NCBI RefSeq assembly: GCF_057098645.1
Contig: NZ_CM169472.1
DNA: 64,000 nt
Direction: 5' to 3' (one strand)
Shown here: in pieces, positions 2,418 to 20,464 of the stretch
Layout of the letters: every line of letters begins with the position of its first letter
How positions within the stretch are numbered: the stretch's first letter is position 1
Program-made: the position numbers and the translations under genes
Notes under the pieces: generated by a model
Database searches by the model: none
What the model was told of the DNA's origin: nothing
What the model saw: only the letters and a program-made list of their open reading frames with translations

Positions 2418-3683
2418 ATGCTTACCACCCTTATTTATCGTAGCCATATACGTGACGACGAACCTGTCAAAAAAATCGAAGAAATGGTTTCGATAGCAAA
2501 TCGCAGGAACATGCAGTCTGACGTAACAGGGATCTTACTGTTTAATGGTTCTCATTTTTTCCAGCTTCTGGAAGGTCCGGAAGAACAGGTTAAAATGATA
2601 TATCGGGCTATATGCCAGGATCCACGGCACTATAATATTGTTGAGCTGCTGTGCGATTACGCGCCTGCTCGCCGTTTTGGCAAAGCGGGAATGGAATTAT
2701 TTGATTTACGCCTGCACGAGCGAGATGACGTTTTACAGGCCGTATTCGACAAAGGCACATCAAAATTTCAGCTAACTTATGATGACAGAGCGCTACAATT
2801 TTTTCGTACTTTTGTCCTTGCAACCGAACAATCAACCTATTTCGAGATTCCTGCTGAAGACTCCTGGCTTTTTATCGCTGACGGATCTGATAAAGAACTT
2901 GATTCCTGTACCCTTTCACCAAATATAAACGACCACTTTGCCTTTCATCCTATTGTTGATCCCTTATCGCGGCGGATAATCGCTTTTGAAGCCATTGTGC
3001 AAAAAAATGAAGACAGCCCGTCAGCTATAGCAGTTGGGCAGCGTAAAGACGGGGAAATCTACACAGCGGATCTCAAAAGTAAGGCGCTTGTATTCGCGAT
3101 GGCACACGCACTTGAGCTCGGTGATAAAATGATATCTATCAATCTATTACCTATGACCCTGGTTAACGAGCCTGACGCAGTCTCTTTTTTACTTGATGAA
3201 ATAAAGGCCAATGGTCTGGTGCCTGAACAAATCATCGTTGAATTTACTGAAAGTGAAGTCATATCTCGGTTTGATGAGTTTGCCGAAGCGGTTAAATCGC
3301 TAAAGGCTGCCGGTATCAGTGTAGCAATTGATCATTTTGGCGCAGGTTTTGCTGGTTTGTTACTCCTGTCACGCTTCCAGCCTGACAGAATTAAAATCAG
3401 TCAGGAATTGATTACCAATGTTCATAAAAGCGGACCACGGCAGGCAATTATTCAGGCGATCATAAAATGCTGTACATCACTTGAAATTCAAGTCTCTGCT
3501 ATGGGCGTGGCAACACCAGAAGAGTGGATGTGGCTTGAATCCGCAGGAATTGAGATGTTTCAGGGGGATCTGTTTGCTAAAGCTAAATTGAATGGTATCC
3601 CTTCAGTTGCGTGGCCAGAAAAAAATAATTTTCAGCACATGATTTCAGTAAATCATCGTGAAAATGAATACGTTATGTTTTAA
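2418..3683 (+). CDS. bluF: BluF (YcgF), BLUF-EAL blue-light sensor / BluR anti-repressor
   Basis: Protein from MLTTLIYRSHIRDDEPVKKIEEMVSIANRRNM... matches K-12 BluF; start taken at internal ATG 2418 of the 2340 ORF. Confidence 0.85.
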   Translation: MLTTLIYRSHIRDDEPVKKIEEMVSIANRRNMQSDVTGILLFNGSHFFQLLEGPEEQVKMIYRAICQDPRHYNIVELLCDYAPARRFGKAGMELFDLRLHERDDVLQAVFDKGTSKFQLTYDDRALQFFRTFVLATEQSTYFEIPAEDSWLFIADGSDKELDSCTLSPNINDHFAFHPIVDPLSRRIIAFEAIVQKNEDSPSAIAVGQRKDGEIYTADLKSKALVFAMAHALELGDKMISINLLPMTLVNEPDAVSFLLDEIKANGLVPEQIIVEFTESEVISRFDEFAEAVKSLKAAGISVAIDHFGAGFAGLLLLSRFQPDRIKISQELITNVHKSGPRQAIIQAIIKCCTSLEIQVSAMGVATPEEWMWLESAGIEMFQGDLFAKAKLNGIPSVAWPEKNNFQHMISVNHRENEYVMF

Positions 3684-15025: not shown

Positions 15026-15307
15026 TTACCGCCGTAACCGCTCCGGCTTCTTCCAGTGGTACGTTATTTTCGCCTTCTCCCGATACAGTTCAACGCGGCG
15101 ATTGTAGGCCAGCATTTCCAGAACGCGGATCCGTATGTCGCGCATATCCGCATCATTAAGCTGGATACCATCACGGCGCATCACCTCAGCAACAACACGC
15201 GCATAATTTTCGGCTGTCACGCTGTCCGGCTGCGTGGTCTGTTCGTCAGCCTGCTGGCTGATTCCAGAGACGCGGCGGATTAATCGCAGTATTTCTGCTT
15301 CTGTCAT
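15026..15307 (-). CDS. Hypothetical protein (93 aa) downstream of terL
   Basis: ORF with GAGG Shine-Dalgarno 8 nt upstream, 14 nt after the terL stop. Confidence 0.55.
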   Translation of the reverse strand: MTEAEILRLIRRVSGISQQADEQTTQPDSVTAENYARVVAEVMRRDGIQLNDADMRDIRIRVLEMLAYNRRVELYREKAKITYHWKKPERLRR

Positions 15308-15320
15308 GCTGCTGACCTCA

Positions 15321-16982
15321 TTACACCCCGCTAAATTCTTCCAGTTTCTGGCGGTGGCTGTCGCTTATATCAAAAGCAAAATCCTCATGCTCTGCCTGGA
15401 ATGTACCAAACGCCATCAGCGCCGCCACGCTCGGGTCTATCTTGTTCGGTGATTTTTTCTTGTTCGGCTTGATATTGGCGTTCGCGTCACTCTGCATCAC
15501 GACGTTACTCATCGACCAGGACAACACCGGATCGCTACGATGCACAATCACCCTGCGGTTAACAAAAACTTCGAACGATTTCGCCGCCGGACTGAATCTG
15601 AGGTAGGTTTGCGGGAACGGCTCCACCTCAAAGCCTGCCCCCTGTAATTGCGTCCTGAGATGCGTGGCGTTCCACGTATCAAAGCCCACCAGCCTGATAT
15701 TAAATTTCTCCGCATCCTGCATGATGTCATCTCTGATCCGGTCGTAATCAATGCAGTCACCTGGCGTTGTGCGTATCCAGCCCGCTTTAGCCCACTGGCG
15801 ATAGACAGCGCGGTTTTTATTGGCGGGGTTCTGTAGCTGGAACTCCGGCAGATAATGACGGGAAACCAGCATGATATTTTTACCGACCGGAAAGGCATAG
15901 CACACGCTGGAAATATCGCTGGTTGATGATAAGTCCAGCCCCGCGTAACACTCCTGCCCGTGTAAATCTTCCTCCGTGAACGTTCCGGCACACTCAGCCC
16001 ATGCGCCGTTACCCATCCACGGGGTAGCCCCCTGGCACCAGATATTAAATCGCTTTGTCATCATCTCCACCCATTGCGACGGAATACCCCGCGCTTTCTG
16101 GATGGTTGAGGCCAGTTTTTCACGATCCACGGAAACATCGATGTTAGGGTTAGCCTTTATCCACATCGCCGGATCATCAACCTCGTTTTCGTCGTCCAGT
16201 TCGTAAATCAGTACAAAAATTGAATCGTTGACCTCTTCGCCGTCCAGGATCTGGCAGCAATAATCATAGTGCTGCTTACAGGCTGAAACGACGTTACTGC
16301 CCGATGTGGTAATGGCAAATAACAGCCCTTCGGGACGTGCGCCCATCCCCAGCTCAAGCGCGGAATAAACGCCGTTATCGGGGTGTAGGTGGTATTCGTC
16401 CACGATGGAAAGGCTTGGGTTTGTGCCCTCGATGGTTGCCGCTTTTGCTGCCAGCGGCTTTAACAGGCTGTTGCTTTTCGGGTGCATCACCTTGTGGGCC
16501 TGAATATTCACCCGCCTGCGTAACGGTCGGGATAAAAGGCACATCTGACGCGCATCATCAAAAACGATCCGCGCCTGGTCACGGCTCACCGCTGCGGTGT
16601 AAATATCCTGCTGCCCGTTCTCCATAATCAGAAACCAGTTAGCCAGAATCGCGGCGGTCGTGGATTTCGCATTTTTGCGCGGCACTTCGATAAAGGCGCT
16701 CGTGTATTTGCGCCGTCCGGTGGCCTTAACCTTAAAGCCGAGGATGCACGCAAAGGCGAACTGCTGCCACGGCTCCAGCTCAATGGGTCTGCCACGCATC
16801 GGTCCTTTTACGTGCGGGCACACCCTGGAAAAGGCAATAAACCGCTCCACAACCTCACGATCGAACGTGTAAAGGGGGCTTTTAAGGTCCGAAAAGTACC
16901 GTTTAACAGCCTGTTTTAACCGTTTACAGGCCGGAATTTTGCCCGTTTTTACGTCTTCTGCGTACTTATTCCAGGCGGTCAA
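15321..16982 (-). CDS. terL: Terminase large subunit (553 aa)
   Basis: Size and position after TerS; ATPase and nuclease regions typical of phage TerL. Confidence 0.85.
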   Translation of the reverse strand: MTAWNKYAEDVKTGKIPACKRLKQAVKRYFSDLKSPLYTFDREVVERFIAFSRVCPHVKGPMRGRPIELEPWQQFAFACILGFKVKATGRRKYTSAFIEVPRKNAKSTTAAILANWFLIMENGQQDIYTAAVSRDQARIVFDDARQMCLLSRPLRRRVNIQAHKVMHPKSNSLLKPLAAKAATIEGTNPSLSIVDEYHLHPDNGVYSALELGMGARPEGLLFAITTSGSNVVSACKQHYDYCCQILDGEEVNDSIFVLIYELDDENEVDDPAMWIKANPNIDVSVDREKLASTIQKARGIPSQWVEMMTKRFNIWCQGATPWMGNGAWAECAGTFTEEDLHGQECYAGLDLSSTSDISSVCYAFPVGKNIMLVSRHYLPEFQLQNPANKNRAVYRQWAKAGWIRTTPGDCIDYDRIRDDIMQDAEKFNIRLVGFDTWNATHLRTQLQGAGFEVEPFPQTYLRFSPAAKSFEVFVNRRVIVHRSDPVLSWSMSNVVMQSDANANIKPNKKKSPNKIDPSVAALMAFGTFQAEHEDFAFDISDSHRQKLEEFSGV

Positions 16983-17322
16983 GCTCGTCCTCTTCTTCTG
17001 TTTCCGGTGGATTTTTACGGCGGCTTATCGGGTCAAAACCGAGCAAGGAGGCCATTTTTATCATCACTCTTTCAGCGTCGGATTTTGCGCTTAATGCGGG
17101 GTTTCTGCTCTCGCCGCCCTGACTGTTAACAATGCTGAACCCGCGCGCCGCAAGGTCTGCAACGGCTTTCCGGTAAATGGAGTAGTTGACGCAATACAGT
17201 TCCAGATTGCTCCAGTCGGCGGGGGTCAGGTCTCCCCGTTCCGCAAGCTGCCGCGATTTTTCCCGCCACTGCTTCACGGCGATATCATCCAGGTAGGCGG
17301 GGGCTTTCGGTGGTCTTGCCAT
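16966..17322 (-). CDS. terS: Terminase small subunit, P27-family-like (118 aa)
   Basis: Small acidic-C-terminus protein overlapping terL start, downstream of an HNH gene. Confidence 0.75.
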   Translation of the reverse strand: MARPPKAPAYLDDIAVKQWREKSRQLAERGDLTPADWSNLELYCVNYSIYRKAVADLAARGFSIVNSQGGESRNPALSAKSDAERVMIKMASLLGFDPISRRKNPPETEEEDELDRLE

Positions 17323-17444
17323 GCTTATTTTTCGTCAGATTATTTTTCAAAAAATTCCCGTGCATAAAAATTTGAGGAGGCGTTCGGTGCCCGGCGGGGT
17401 CGGGTTTGTCCTGAAAACGCCCCCCACCCCGTCATACAGCCTCA

Positions 17445-17669
17445 TCAGCGATTGCGGAAACATTCCATAACCTCGCGGTCACGGTCGGTTAATCGCTTCG
17501 CTGTGATGCGTTCTGCGCGTCCTGACGCTTTATCTTTATGCCCTGTTTCCTGTGTCTTCCATGCGTCACGCTGCCTTATAAGTCCACGGATAAGGCGGTT
17601 TTGTTCCCGCTCATTCATCAGCGTCATACATCCAGTTATTGCGGTTAGCGGCCCGTTCTTCCTCTTCAT
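17445..17669 (-). CDS. Hypothetical basic protein (74 aa) overlapping the 3-prime end of the HNH gene
   Basis: ATG at 17669 preceded by AGGTGG Shine-Dalgarno (5-nt spacer); out of frame with HNH; start uncertain. Confidence 0.4.
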   Translation of the reverse strand: MKRKNGPLTAITGCMTLMNEREQNRLIRGLIRQRDAWKTQETGHKDKASGRAERITAKRLTDRDREVMECFRNR

Positions 17670-18051
17670 GAAATCCACCTGCGGCACGCTTGCTTTTTGT
17701 TGCCGGATCAAGCCATTTCGTTTTCTGGTTATGACACGCCTGGCACAATGGTTGATGGTTCCATTCGGGCCAGAAGAGAACATCATCACCGCCATTAATC
17801 GGGATAATGTGATCCACCACCACGGCGGGCGTATATATCCCCTTCTCAAGGCATCGCACGCATAACGGGTTTTTACTCAGATACATGGCGCGGTATTTGT
17901 CCCACTGTCTGGAGTACCCACGCGCGCGGCGGTGTCCTCGTCTGGCATCCTCTGCACGCCATGCCGCCCGCCTGTGCTCCTCACACTTGCCGGACTTCAC
18001 GCGCCTGTTACAGCCTGGTTCTGTGCATCGTCTTAATGGTTGCCACGGCAT
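17611..18051 (-). CDS. HNH endonuclease (146 aa), packaging-associated
   Basis: Cys/His-rich motifs (CxxC ... HIIPINGGDD ... CQACHNQK); located just upstream of terS as in HNH-dependent cos packaging. Confidence 0.85.
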   Translation of the reverse strand: MPWQPLRRCTEPGCNRRVKSGKCEEHRRAAWRAEDARRGHRRARGYSRQWDKYRAMYLSKNPLCVRCLEKGIYTPAVVVDHIIPINGGDDVLFWPEWNHQPLCQACHNQKTKWLDPATKSKRAAGGFHEEEERAANRNNWMYDADE

Positions 18052-18347
18052 CAGTACACCCCCACATCACGGTAAGCCGTCCAGAGCGCGCCAATCGTCA
18101 TGGGTACGCGCGTTTTTGCGTTATCCGCTACCAGCTGGCGATTCTCGTACAGGTGAGCGATAAACATCATGCAGCCAATCTTTATGGCTGGCGTGAACTC
18201 CAGCCCGTCATCAAAGCGCCTGCCTATATGTATCTGGCACGCCTCAAGCGATGCGGCAATGTATCCGCTGATTAACTGGTCTTCCTCGTCGCCATCGATG
18301 CGGCAATGGAGTTTCACTTCTTCCAGGGTGATAAGTTCTTCTGTCAT
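18051..18347 (-). CDS. Head-tail connector protein, gp6-like (98 aa)
   Basis: Size, position and sequence character of phage gp6-like connector proteins. Confidence 0.65.
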   Translation of the reverse strand: MTEELITLEEVKLHCRIDGDEEDQLISGYIAASLEACQIHIGRRFDDGLEFTPAIKIGCMMFIAHLYENRQLVADNAKTRVPMTIGALWTAYRDVGVY

Positions 18348-18682
18348 TTTTCCGCGCCCTCACGACAAAGAATTTCAAGGCGTGTCCTGGCGGCATCCGG
18401 CAGCGGCTGCCCGATGATATTCAGTACACGCCCCGCCAGCGGCCCCGTACTGACCTTTATCCGGCTGGTGGCGTTGATGTCCTTCCGGTACCGTATCCAG
18501 ATCCTTACGGTACCAATCGCCAGCTCTGCACCCGATGAAATGGCCTCCTTGCTGCTGATCATGTTCACGCTTGCCCAGAGTGTGTGACCGTCCTCCCACG
18601 TTTCGAGTATTTCGCCGGTTATATCCCTGGTCTGTTTCAGGGTCTGAATCGTTACCCTGTCACGCAGTCGCCCTATGTTCAT
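18344..18682 (-). CDS. Head-tail adaptor / head closure protein (112 aa from MNIGRL)
   Basis: MNIGRLRDRVTIQ... typical of head-tail adaptor family; starts 4 nt inside the portal 3-prime end. Confidence 0.65.
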   Translation of the reverse strand: MNIGRLRDRVTIQTLKQTRDITGEILETWEDGHTLWASVNMISSKEAISSGAELAIGTVRIWIRYRKDINATSRIKVSTGPLAGRVLNIIGQPLPDAARTRLEILCREGAEK

Positions 18683-19890
18683 TCCGGTTTTTCTCCCTCG
18701 CTGATTTTTACTTCCTGTTTCCATGCCTGGCTGAACTCATCACCACCATCACGCGGGGACAGCCCTTCACGTTCGCGGGCTTCGTTCGGGCACATAACGC
18801 CGGATTTGATGCCGCGTTCATAGGTGGCAAAGCGTTCGCCAGGTGTGGCCCGTAACAGGTCCGCGCTGTCAAACTCCACCTGATACCGGATACCAGGTAC
18901 AGGCGAGGCCACCAGCAGGGCGTTTTTTATCTGCTGCTCAAAGTTCGCCAGCCACGGGCGCATCGTCATGGTGAGAAATGCGCGGCTTGCCTCGCTGAAA
19001 TTGCTGTAGGTGCTGTTGCTGTATTCCTGCAAAAAAATCGGCGAGACGTTGAACATTCGGGCGATGTCTTCAATGGTGAAGCGACGGGAGGCCAGCCATT
19101 CAGCATCCTGATTACTCATGCCCAGCTGCTGATAGCTCATACCCCCTTCAAGGATGGGCGTTTTTCCGGCGTTTCTGGCCCCTTTGTAGCGTTCCAGTGC
19201 GGCTAATGCCTGTTTGCCCTTCACGCCGTCCAGCCATTCGCCTGACGTGATAACCCCTGCCGCCATCATGCCATCACGCATCACGCTCGCGCCGTGGCGT
19301 TGTTGGGCCAGCCCAAGCCCCAGCGATTCGCGGCAGATGGTTACAGGTGAGCGCCCCATAAAACCGTCATCCGTGGAGTAACGAAGGTGGAGAACCTCCC
19401 ACGGTAAATAGTTGCGGGTGTTTCCGGTGTAGGCGTCAGTGATGCAGTAGCGCCAGTTGTGTTCGCCTGTCTGCTCCACGTTCACCGACTGCGGCGGGTA
19501 AGGATGTAAAGCCACCGGAAAACCATCACGCCCCCACTGAATCACCGCATAAGCATTACCGTTTAACAGGCAGTGGCGGATCATCATTCGCTTAAACTGG
19601 TAGGGAGTCTGCCACGCGTTCGGGCGCTCGTTGAGGATGTGATCGACCGGATGAGAATCAAGCCACTCTCGGGCCTCCTTCCCCTTCTCATTGCGTACCA
19701 GGTACAGGTAACACGGCATGGTAGCCACCGCCTCAGAGATGACCGTGACGGCGTTCATGACGGCGGGCAGTGATTCCGCTGTCCCCGATGATACGTACTC
19801 ACCCGCCCCCGTGTTCGATGTGCCAGCCAGCGCCATAAACTCATCAAGCGTCATGCTGCGCTGCTCTTTTTTTCTTCTGAAAGGCCACAT
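18679..19890 (-). CDS. Portal protein, HK97 family (403 aa)
   Basis: Size and position between prohead protease and connector genes. Confidence 0.8.
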   Translation of the reverse strand: MWPFRRKKEQRSMTLDEFMALAGTSNTGAGEYVSSGTAESLPAVMNAVTVISEAVATMPCYLYLVRNEKGKEAREWLDSHPVDHILNERPNAWQTPYQFKRMMIRHCLLNGNAYAVIQWGRDGFPVALHPYPPQSVNVEQTGEHNWRYCITDAYTGNTRNYLPWEVLHLRYSTDDGFMGRSPVTICRESLGLGLAQQRHGASVMRDGMMAAGVITSGEWLDGVKGKQALAALERYKGARNAGKTPILEGGMSYQQLGMSNQDAEWLASRRFTIEDIARMFNVSPIFLQEYSNSTYSNFSEASRAFLTMTMRPWLANFEQQIKNALLVASPVPGIRYQVEFDSADLLRATPGERFATYERGIKSGVMCPNEAREREGLSPRDGGDEFSQAWKQEVKISEGEKPE

Positions 19891-19891
19891 A

Positions 19892-20464
19892 TCACACCCC
19901 CGCTAAATCCGCCCACCAGCGGCGATTATCCGCACGCGGCATTTTTTCGGGGTGCTGCTCATACAGGGAACGGCGGGCCAGCTCCACGCCGGAATCGGGG
20001 TAAGCCGGTACCGATGTAACGGTAATTTCGTACAGTTCCGCCACCAGCACGGTGCGCACGCATGGATCTGTTGTGGTATCCCATACATCCTTACGGGAGC
20101 GAAAGCCAAAGCTCATCCCCGAGATGTCCCCACGCTTAACCAGTTCGATAACGTCGCGCCCTGTACTGGTATCCGGTGGGGTCAGTTCAAAGCGTAACCC
20201 TGTTTCGTCCTCTTCCAGTTTCAGCGTGCCGGAACGGGTGCGCCCCAGTAACATGCTGTGGTCATGCTCATACAGGCCGCGAACGTCATTACCCGCCGCA
20301 AGCCATTCAGTAAACGCTCCCCGCTGGAATTTTTCGTAAAACTCACCCCATAGCAGATCAGAAAGGTTATCCCAGCGAACAACGTAGCCTGTAAGCGTGT
20401 TGCTGGCGCTGGTGGTGATTTCCGATGACCGGATTTCCATACTCTTCATAATTTTTTCACCCAT
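19892..20464 (-). CDS. Prohead maturation protease, HK97 family (190 aa)
   Basis: Size and position between major capsid and portal genes. Confidence 0.8.
   Translation of the reverse strand: MGEKIMKSMEIRSSEITTSASNTLTGYVVRWDNLSDLLWGEFYEKFQRGAFTEWLAAGNDVRGLYEHDHSMLLGRTRSGTLKLEEDETGLRFELTPPDTSTGRDVIELVKRGDISGMSFGFRSRKDVWDTTTDPCVRTVLVAELYEITVTSVPAYPDSGVELARRSLYEQHPEKMPRADNRRWWADLAGV

What the first reader, a model, noticed from the sequence alone, without database searches (positions are those of the whole stretch)
17445..17669. Small basic ORF overlapping the HNH gene out of frame, between HNH and terS
A 74-aa ORF with a good AGGTGG ribosome-binding site begins 59 nt inside the HNH 3-prime end in a different frame and ends before a GC-rich hairpin upstream of terS. 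Overprinted genes in packaging modules are uncommon and could encode a packaging specificity or redirecting factor.
Basis: seen in the sequence. Interest (0 to 1): 0.35.

Follow-up and report, generated by a model that had tools for sequence, protein, structure and literature searches.

The report
Small conserved satellite packaging gene

Summary
The ORF, its ATG at 17669, the AGGTGG and the 59-nt overlap with HNH are all in the sequence. The element is a capsid-forming PICI almost identical to EcCIEDL933. The 3' 174 nt (17445-17618, minus strand) are a genuine gene. It matches phrog_3173 end to end. NCBI annotates it as hypothetical protein WP_000174068.1. About 21 clusters of 47-61-aa relatives occur across Enterobacterales, always in the order HNH, small gene, about 125-nt spacer, terS. 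Invariant residues are written with 2-4 synonymous codons, and indels are in frame.

The conserved start is the ATG at 17618, in an ATGAATGA overlap with the HNH stop. That is ordinary translational coupling. Long overprinting is therefore not supported.

The spacer after the gene is homologous to the phage P27 cos region, and P27 has no such gene. Function is unknown. The best guess is an accessory packaging factor acting with HNH and terminase at cos. It is probably the "hypothetical gene 1792" whose mutation severely reduced EcCIEDL933 transfer. Interest is low to moderate, and the gene is already known.

The parts
17445..17618 (-). Small gene as best defined here: 57 aa plus stop. Sequence MNEREQNRLIRGLIRQRDAWKTQETGHKDKASGRAERITAKRLTDRDREVMECFRNR, pI 10.7, 6.9 kDa.
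   Evidence: phrog_3173 matched over 1-57 of 57 positions, E=7.5e-37. Profile search finds 21 clusters of 42-71 aa. Conserved synteny. Synonymous-codon pattern.
17619..17627 (-). Three extra codons (MTL) in the NCBI PGAP call (60 aa, WP_000174068.1). This ATG is forced by the conserved HNH motif W-M-Y.
   Evidence: The PHROG profile and distant homologs start at MNE/MTE.
17628..17669 (-). Lineage-specific and not under constraint in this frame.
   Evidence: Start codon is ATG in 5 of 68, GTG in 31, non-start in 32. pN/pS is 3.8 in this frame against 0.20 in the HNH frame.
17675..17680 (-). It is the HNH codons Ala-Gly-Gly.
   Evidence: Present in 28 of 68 unique relatives, replaced in the 85% and 71% clades.
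17611..17618 (-). ATGAATGA: the small-gene start overlapping the HNH stop (translational coupling signature).
   Evidence: ATGA(A/C)TGA in 68 of 68. An 8-nt overlap in most of the 18 diverse loci, 4 nt in one.
17611..18051 (-). HNH endonuclease gene of the satellite packaging module.
   Evidence: Pfam PF01844, E=1.7e-8. phrog_144. Intact in 68 of 68.
17408..17430 (-). Conserved G-run block GGGGTGGGGGGCGTTTTCAGGAC of the spacer, starting about 15 nt after the small-gene stop.
   Evidence: Near-invariant across 16 elements from many genera. A G-rich block aligns at the same place in phage P27.
17377..17386 (-). Predicted cohesive-end (cos) 10-mer CGAACGCCTC, by alignment to the annotated cos-site of phage P27.
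   Evidence: P27 misc_feature 'cos-site' CGCCCGCCCC aligns here. The virion-derived vB_KppS-Ant record lacks 69 nt around the equivalent position. Cleavage itself is inferred.
17341..17376 (-). Conserved CTCAAATTTTTATGCACGG...TTTTTTGAAAAATA block of the spacer.
16966..17322 (-). terS (P27-family small terminase, 118 aa).
   Evidence: PF05119, E=1.3e-23. Intact in 68 of 68.
15321..16982 (-). terL (large terminase).
   Evidence: PF03354 and PF20441.

Best explanation
Shown:
- The window carries a capsid-forming phage-inducible chromosomal island (cf-PICI) of the EcCIEDL933 type.
- Between its hnh and terS genes lies a genuine 57-codon gene (17445-17618, minus strand).
- It encodes a very basic protein made of two helices joined by a disordered linker.
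- The family has a fixed N-terminus, M-(N/T)-E, and a fixed C-terminus, RDRE-x-x-x-(C/A)-FRNR-COOH.
- It is restricted to Enterobacterales cf-PICI packaging modules.
- Its ATG sits in an ATGAnTGA overlap with the hnh stop codon.
- It is the last gene before a conserved, P27-type cos region.

Inferred:
- It is translated by coupling to hnh, so the two proteins are made together.
- The protein then acts as a non-essential accessory factor of the satellite's HNH-TerS-TerL machinery at the adjacent cos site. It would do so by binding cos-flanking DNA or one of those proteins, raising the efficiency of cos recognition or cleavage.
- The 74-aa form with a 59-nt overprint is a lineage-specific accident of HNH codons. 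It is not the functional gene.
For: Gene reality:
- Full-length match to phrog_3173.
- 21 clusters at <50% identity in 1.84 billion representatives, nearly all 47-61 aa with the same ends.
- In-frame indels of 9-21 nt.
- In 20 diverse sequences the last 14 codons carry 11, 5 and 29 extra alleles at codon positions 1, 2 and 3 (p=3e-5). Six invariant residues each use 2-4 synonymous codons, including CGN/AGR switches.
- The sense frame is open in 20 of 20, the other sense frames in 0 of 20, and antisense frames in at most 10 of 20.
- Within E. coli, pN/pS is 0.385 in frame against 1.03 and 1.40 out of frame, with a synonymous excess at p about 0.005-0.03.

Start codon: and the open frames of L101 and L085.

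Synteny: HNH, small gene, 115-130 nt spacer, terS in 18 loci from Enterobacter, Klebsiella, Proteus, Xenorhabdus, Pectobacterium, Erwinia, Kosakonia and others.

Satellite specificity:
- Only 3 tblastn hits in 50,697 phage records, all cf-PICI-like.
- Phages P27 and 689R6 have HNH, cos, terS with no such ORF.

cos adjacency.

Phenotype: in Alqurainy et al. (bioRxiv 10.1101/2022.09.08.507074), a mutant of 'hypothetical gene 1792' of the packaging module replicated normally. Its transfer was severely reduced but not abolished, and complementation restored it. Locus-tag arithmetic places 1792 in the slot between HNH and terS.
Against: - No biochemical function can be read from the sequence. There is no Pfam, NCBIfam, PDB or Foldseek match, and the AF2 model is not a compact fold (pTM 0.36).
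- The identification with gene 1792 is an inference from numbering. The offset between the two annotations drifts by 2 over about 60 genes.
- The middle third of the protein evolves almost freely (22 synonymous against 50 non-synonymous changes).
- Within E. coli alone, the test of variable sites by codon position is not significant (15/18/24).
- 3 of 68 close variants carry a nonsense or frameshift mutation while HNH and terS are intact in all 68. One Kosakonia element has lost the stop codon. The gene is therefore dispensable at least for persistence.
- In this E. coli lineage the SD before the conserved ATG is weak. The strong AGGTGG plus ATG/GTG upstream could still yield an extended isoform.
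Confidence: 0.6

Rival explanations
1. A 74-aa protein is started at ATG 17669 behind AGGTGG, truly overprinted on the last 59 nt of hnh, and the extension matters for function.
For: - A strong SD with 5-nt spacing and an ATG are present in the window.
- GTG with the same SD occurs in most relatives of 93% identity or more.
- The 74-aa form has been called on 4 contigs in public data.
Against: - The start is absent in 32 of 68 unique relatives and in every distant lineage.
- pN/pS of the extension is 3.8 in this frame against 0.20 in the HNH frame.
- The PHROG profile and all homologs begin at MNE/MTE.
- In L101 and L085 the frame is closed just upstream of the conserved ATG.
Confidence: 0.05
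2. The protein is a satellite-versus-helper specificity or interference factor. For example, it keeps the helper's terminase/HNH off the satellite cos, or blocks cross-talk between the two HNH-type packaging systems. It would not be a positive cofactor of the satellite's own terminase.
For: - The family is confined to cf-PICIs and is absent from phages with the same HNH-cos-terS layout.
- Other PICIs use small helical proteins (Rpp, Ppi) to redirect packaging (introduction of the cf-PICI paper).
Against: - The same paper reports that helper phage titres were unaffected by all packaging-module mutants.
- There is no sequence similarity to any named family.
Confidence: 0.15
3. The ORF is conserved only because the DNA is part of the cos region (a cosQ/cosB-like site), or acts as a leader for terS expression. 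The peptide itself has no function.
For: - The ORF ends about 15 nt before an extremely conserved non-coding block and about 59 nt before the predicted cos 10-mer.
- A few natural variants are disrupted.
Against: - The DNA inside the ORF is far less conserved than the spacer. It varies mainly at synonymous sites, while the amino acids stay fixed.
- Both ORF ends and its length are conserved across genera.
- The first 15 nt after the stop are variable, which separates the ORF from the conserved DNA blocks.
- The probable 1792 mutant was complemented in trans.
Confidence: 0.04
4. The protein is a structural or DNA-condensing component, such as an internal head protein or a head-completion helper of the small capsid, rather than a terminase cofactor.
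For: - It is very basic and largely disordered or helical.
- It is encoded at the end of the head-morphogenesis gene string.
- The partial transfer defect fits a stabilising role.
Against: - Tight coupling to hnh and adjacency to cos, rather than to the capsid, portal or connector genes.
- Connector and head-closure proteins are already encoded.
Confidence: 0.1

Closest known systems
phrog_3173 (PHROGs v4, unknown function) / NCBI WP_000174068.1 'hypothetical protein'
   Same: - Full-length profile match (positions 1-57 of 57, E=7.5e-37).
- The 60-aa PGAP protein is identical in E. coli AR_0013 and in EDL933.
- The 57- and 60-aa forms are each seen on about 1000 or more contigs.
   Different: Nothing differs in sequence.
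'Hypothetical gene 1792' of EcCIEDL933 (Alqurainy et al., bioRxiv 10.1101/2022.09.08.507074)
   Same: - Same island type and same packaging module.
- Numbering puts 1792 between HNH (1791) and terS (1793).
- The reported phenotype is a severe but incomplete loss of transfer, complemented in trans.
   Different: Identity is inferred, not stated in the text held here, at roughly 80% confidence. The paper gives no function.
HNH-cos-terS junction of phage P27 and related cos phages with HNH-dependent terminases (HK97 type)
   Same: - Same gene order.
- P27-family TerS.
- Homologous spacer with a G-run and ACCGCCCGCCCC-TCAAATTTTTAC, which includes the annotated 10-nt cos-site.
   Different: - Phages P27 and 689R6 have no ORF between hnh and cos.
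- Their TerS carries an additional basic N-terminal arm of about 45 aa that the satellite TerS lacks.
Rpp and Ppi, small packaging-redirecting proteins of classical PICIs/SaPIs
   Same: Small satellite-encoded proteins that act on packaging initiation.
   Different: - No detectable sequence or fold similarity.
- cf-PICIs bring their own TerS/TerL/HNH and reportedly do not interfere with the helper.
- Binding to a helper TerS was not tested.

Membership tests
phrog_3173 small-protein family | End-to-end match to the 57-position profile | tested here: met
   E=7.5e-37, residues 4-60 of the 60-aa form and 18-74 of the 74-aa form.
phrog_3173 small-protein family | Length about 47-61 aa, with N-terminal M(N/T)E and C-terminal RDRExxx(C/A)FRNR at the very end | tested here: met
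   Alignments A1 and A2. 21 clusters.
phrog_3173 small-protein family | Position: overlaps the hnh stop and is followed by a spacer of about 115-130 nt and then terS | tested here: met
   The window has an 8-nt overlap and a 122-nt spacer. The same holds in nearly all of 18 loci; the one exception has lost its stop codon.
Capsid-forming PICI (cf-PICI, EcCIEDL933 type) | [quoted passage not shown] | tested here: met
   Pfam hits. Annotation of the 100%-identical locus between roxA and phoQ. Same site and gene order in EDL933.
Overprinted gene (long out-of-frame overlap coding in both frames) | Conserved start codon inside the upstream gene | tested here: not met
   ATG in 5 of 68, GTG in 31, non-start in 32. 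Absent in all distant lineages.
Overprinted gene (long out-of-frame overlap coding in both frames) | Purifying selection in the second frame across the overlap | tested here: not met
   pN/pS is 3.8 in the small-ORF frame against 0.20 in the HNH frame for positions 17619-17669.
Rpp/Ppi-type packaging redirection factors | Sequence or fold homology to Rpp or Ppi | tested here: inconclusive
   No named family hit in Pfam, PHROGs, NCBIfam, PDB or BFVD. No direct pairwise comparison with Rpp or Ppi sequences was run.
Rpp/Ppi-type packaging redirection factors | Binds helper TerS and changes cos/pac specificity | not testable with these tools
   Needs pull-down, two-hybrid and packaging assays.
Intrinsic terminator / structured hairpin after the ORF | Stable stem-loop beyond chance, a T-tract, and covariation | tested here: not met
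   z=-1.1 against shuffles. 0 terminator-like sites. 0 compensatory pairs in 16 sequences.
P27-type cos site (context of the ORF) | Sequence homology of the hnh-terS spacer to the annotated P27 cos region | tested here: met
   Alignment A4. P27 cos-site feature.
P27-type cos site (context of the ORF) | Cleavage to cohesive ends at that 10-mer in the satellite | not testable with these tools
   Indirect only. The virion-derived vB_KppS-Ant record breaks in this spacer and lacks 69 nt around the 10-mer.

The most novel reading that the evidence does not exclude
The 57-aa protein is a cf-PICI-specific cos-recognition subunit. It would be made stoichiometrically with HNH. It would supply in trans the basic DNA-binding arm that the truncated satellite TerS lacks relative to phage P27-family TerS. 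That would give the satellite terminase its exclusive specificity for the satellite cos. This would amount to a fourth, previously unrecognised component of an HNH-dependent packaging initiation complex.
Probability: 0.2. Interest if true: 0.55.

Novelty: already known. Interest (0 to 1): 0.27.

Why it matters
cf-PICIs are recently described satellites. They build their own capsids and package only their own DNA. How that exclusivity is achieved at the cos site is not understood.

This small protein is conserved and satellite-specific. It is coupled to hnh and sits next to cos, so it is an obvious candidate for part of the answer. The comparative data here give its correct boundaries, its family signature and the likely cos 10-mer, all of which make it directly testable.

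As a discovery the finding is modest. The gene is already annotated, is catalogued in PHROGs, and has probably already been mutated. The unusual feature that motivated the finding, the long overprint, is not real.

Tried and rejected
1. Pfam, NCBIfam, PDB sequence-profile, Foldseek PDB and BFVD searches gave no informative hit. The only 'match' was a 13-residue chance similarity to CHIP.
2. The idea that the small protein is the split-off N-terminal arm of P27-type TerS was rejected. Phage TerS N-termini (GRGRKPKPT..LAGNPGKR) show no resemblance to it.
3. An antisense ORF (+ strand, 17452-17865, 137 aa) is open in 67 of 68 close relatives but in at most 10 of 20 diverse ones. It is rejected as a by-product of the sense gene.
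4. Programmed frameshift fusion of HNH to the small protein was considered. There is no slippery heptamer at the hnh 3' end, and no fused homolog appeared among the 21 clusters.
5. The hairpin or terminator after the ORF is not supported.
6. The P12620-1 'phage' record ends inside the small ORF. It is an assembly break, so it says nothing about cos.
7. Direct confirmation that EDL933_1792 is this ORF was attempted and failed. The cluster-member names did not include that tag, the published journal version is not held, and no supplements are held.
8. Within E. coli alone, an open frame is not evidence of coding: P(no stop by chance) is about 0.35 at 15% divergence.

Full report
**Context**

All genes near the finding are on the minus strand. 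Pfam assigns them as follows:

| Coordinates | Gene |
|---|---|
| 19892-20464 | prohead protease |
| 18679-19890 | portal |
| 18344-18724 | head completion |
| 18051-18347 | gp6-like connector |
| 17611-18051 | HNH endonuclease |
| 16966-17322 | P27-family TerS |
| 15321-16982 | TerL |

A 100%-identical stretch in E. coli AR_0013 lies in a roughly 14-kb island between roxA and phoQ. That island carries integrase, regulator and primase genes, then this head and packaging module, and no tail genes. The same island at the same site in O157:H7 EDL933 is EcCIEDL933, the prototype capsid-forming PICI (bioRxiv 10.1101/2022.09.08.507074). Homologous hnh-terS junctions occur in 532 of 5,426 complete E. 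coli genomes.

**The observation**

The 74-codon ORF, its ATG at 17669, AGGTGG five bases upstream, the 59-nt overlap with hnh and the 122-nt gap to terS are all present. NCBI's pipeline already annotates the same frame, from a later ATG at 17627, as a 60-aa hypothetical protein, WP_000174068.1. That protein is identical in EDL933.

**Is it a gene?**

Several independent lines say yes for the 3' 57 codons.

- Both the 60-aa and 74-aa versions match PHROG family 3173 (unknown function) over all 57 profile positions. The match starts at residue 4 of the 60-aa form and residue 18 of the 74-aa form (E about 1e-36).
- A profile search of 1.84 billion representative proteins found 21 clusters, nearly all 47-61 aa. 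They begin M-(N/T)-E and end ...RDRE-x-x-x-(C/A)-FRNR at the C-terminus.
- Three distant members from metagenomes and 15 loci from one-genome-per-species contigs all show capsid-protease-portal-(head completion)-connector-HNH-[small gene]-spacer-terS-terL. The genera include Enterobacter, Intestinirhabdus, Erwinia, Kosakonia, Phytobacter, Xenorhabdus, Pluralibacter, Proteus, Pectobacterium, Klebsiella and Winslowiella. The small-gene ATG overlaps the hnh stop by 8 nt in most loci and by 4 nt in one. The spacer to terS is 115-130 nt in all but one locus, where the stop codon has been lost.
- Homologs differ by in-frame indels of 9, 9 and 21 nt.
- In 20 unique diverse sequences, the last 14 codons show 11, 5 and 29 extra alleles at codon positions 1, 2 and 3 (chi-square p=3e-5). 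The six invariant residues R, R, F, R, N, R are each encoded by two to four synonymous codons, including CGN/AGR switches.
- The sense frame is open in 20 of 20. The other two sense frames are open in 0 of 20, and the antisense frames in at most 10 of 20.
- Within E. coli clades (99-85% DNA identity), pN/pS is 0.385 in frame against 1.03 and 1.40 in the shifted frames. For comparison, HNH is 0.21 and terS 0.15. The synonymous excess against random placement of the same substitutions gives p of about 0.005-0.03.

Two caveats apply. The middle 15 codons are nearly unconstrained (22 synonymous against 50 non-synonymous changes). A simple count of variable sites by codon position within E. coli is not significant (15/18/24). 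The constraint therefore sits in the two terminal helices.

**Where does it start?**

- The octamer ATGA(A/C)TGA, with the small-gene ATG overlapping the hnh TGA, is present in 68 of 68 unique relatives. The equivalent overlap occurs across genera.
- In Pectobacterium betavasculorum (L101) and a metagenomic element (L085), the frame opens only one to four codons upstream of this ATG. No other start is possible there.
- Most lineages have GAGG 6-7 nt upstream of it. The window's lineage has GACG.
- The ATG at 17627 that PGAP uses is fixed by the conserved HNH motif W-M-Y, so its conservation says nothing about the small gene.
AGGTGG is the HNH codons Ala-Gly-Gly and is lost in the 85% and 71% clades.
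- Across the 51-nt extension, pN/pS is 3.8 in the small-ORF frame and 0.20 in the HNH frame.

The real overlap is the ordinary 8-nt start/stop overlap of translationally coupled operon genes. An extended isoform in this particular lineage cannot be excluded, but it is not what selection maintains.

**What lies downstream**

The spacer is more conserved than the flanking coding DNA across genera. It contains the blocks GGGTGGGGG, GAC.AA, GG.ACC, CC.CCTCAAATTTTTA.GC.CGG and a T-run. The first roughly 15 nt after the stop codon are variable.

In phage P27, hnh (L34) is followed by a spacer with an annotated 10-nt cos-site and then terS (L35), with no ORF in between. Phage vB_EcoM-689R6 has the same layout. 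The P27 spacer aligns with the satellite spacers. The P27 cos 10-mer CGCCCGCCCC falls on window CGAACGCCTC (17377-17386).

The virion-derived linear record of the Klebsiella cf-PICI vB_KppS-Ant is 100% identical to an island in K. pneumoniae ATCC 13883. It breaks in exactly this spacer and lacks 69 nt centred on the 10-mer. That fits linear ends at cos with terminal under-coverage, which is an inference. The small gene would then be the last gene of the right arm of the packaged DNA, ending about 59 nt before the predicted cut.

It is no more stable than shuffled sequence (z=-1.1). It is not a terminator, and it shows no covariation.

**What the protein looks like**

It is 57 aa and 6.9 kDa, with pI 10.7 (16 K+R against 10 D+E). 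AlphaFold2 with the family alignment predicts a long N-terminal amphipathic helix (residues 3-31, pLDDT above 90), a disordered basic linker and a short C-terminal helix (residues 45-55). The pTM is 0.36, so it is not a compact fold. No match was found in Pfam, NCBIfam, PDB sequences, Foldseek PDB or BFVD.

**Distribution**

A tblastn search of 50,697 phage records finds only three hits, all of them cf-PICI-like sequences. The closest true-phage TerS relatives are below 38% identity. The family appears confined to Enterobacterales cf-PICIs.

**Link to published work**

The cf-PICI paper reports mutating every gene of the EcCIEDL933 packaging module. Transfer was abolished in every case except 'hypothetical gene 1792', where it was severely reduced. 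Replication and helper titres were unaffected, and complementation restored transfer.

The numbering argument runs as follows.

- A proteomics paper describes EDL933_1785 as a 9-kDa CP-933C protein with a 406-nt upstream intergenic region that contains an unannotated pchE-like gene (PMC5120812).
- This fits the 74-aa gene just upstream of the capsid gene. The gap from ssb is 407 nt and contains the PerC-family gene.
- Counting on gives 1786 capsid, then protease, portal, head closure, connector, 1791 HNH, 1792 the gene between hnh and terS, and 1793 terS.
- RefSeq's original numbering has exactly two slots (RS08725, RS08730) between connector and terS.
- The offset between the two numbering schemes drifts by only 2 over about 60 genes (EDL933_1726 corresponds to RS08390).

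I rate the identification at about 80%. I could not confirm it directly.

**Mechanism**

Shown: this is a conserved, satellite-specific small basic protein whose start is coupled to the hnh stop, and it lies immediately upstream of a P27-type cos region.

Inferred: it is co-produced with HNH and acts as a non-essential accessory of the HNH-TerS-TerL complex at cos. This fits the partial, trans-complementable transfer defect.

A speculative lead is that the satellite TerS (118 aa) lacks the basic N-terminal arm of about 45 aa found in P27-type phage TerS, and the small protein might compensate. It is not homologous to that arm.

The rivals are a specificity or interference factor, a structural or DNA-condensing role, and a purely cis DNA or leader function. 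They are listed with their evidence. The cis-only model is contradicted by the synonymous-site pattern.

**Dispensability**

Three of 68 close variants are disrupted: a 1-nt deletion in L013, and CGA>TGA at the same codon in L055 and L083. HNH and terS are intact in all 68. One Kosakonia element has lost the stop codon.

**Verdict**

This is a real gene with wrong boundaries and the wrong reason for interest. It is already annotated and catalogued, and probably already has a published phenotype, but its function is still unknown.

Noticed in passing
window 17323-17444 (minus strand): The hnh/small-gene to terS spacer is more conserved across Enterobacterales genera than the flanking genes. It is homologous to the phage P27 cos region, and the predicted cohesive-end 10-mer is CGAACGCCTC at 17377-17386.
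   Followed up: partly
L002 (LR881103.1 vB_KppS-Ant) versus L105 3057-3125: The virion-derived 16.5-kb 'phage' record is a Klebsiella cf-PICI, 100% identical to an island in K. pneumoniae ATCC 13883. It lacks 69 nt of the cos spacer at its ends. This is probably end under-coverage, but a double cut cannot be excluded.
   Followed up: partly
window 16966-17322 (terS) versus L108 2363-2833 and L109 2339-2833: The satellite TerS (118 aa) lacks the basic N-terminal arm of about 45 aa (GRGRKPKPT..LAGNPGKR) present in the TerS of phages P27 and 689R6.
   Followed up: partly
L055 and L083, aligned to window 17483-17485: The same CGA>TGA nonsense mutation (codon R45 of the small protein) occurs in two otherwise different 85%-clade sequences. 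CGA>CAA at this codon is also common, so it may be a mutational hotspot or may reflect recombination.
   Followed up: no
L104 (Kosakonia cowanii) 3001-3327: The stop codon of the small gene is lost, so the frame reads through the cos spacer into terS.
   Followed up: no
window 17452-17865 (+ strand): A 137-aa antisense ORF spans the small gene and part of hnh. It is open in 67 of 68 close relatives but not in diverse ones, so it is judged a by-product.
   Followed up: yes
window 15026-15307 (minus strand): A 93-aa hypothetical gene directly after terL matches phrog_1561 (unknown function). In the Klebsiella element a gene annotated as tape measure protein occupies this position, and L089 carries a gene with a tail-assembly-chaperone domain (Phage_TAC_4) there.
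   Followed up: no
L004/L091 (PQ569648.1 Klebsiella phage P12620-1): This 106-kb 'complete phage genome' ends inside a cf-PICI small gene after a cf-PICI head module. It is probably a chimeric assembly of phage and satellite.
   Followed up: no
window 17611-18051 and relatives: The -1 frame of hnh is open from about codon 59 to the end in nearly all relatives without being coding. This is a composition effect that invites false overprinting calls.
   Followed up: yes
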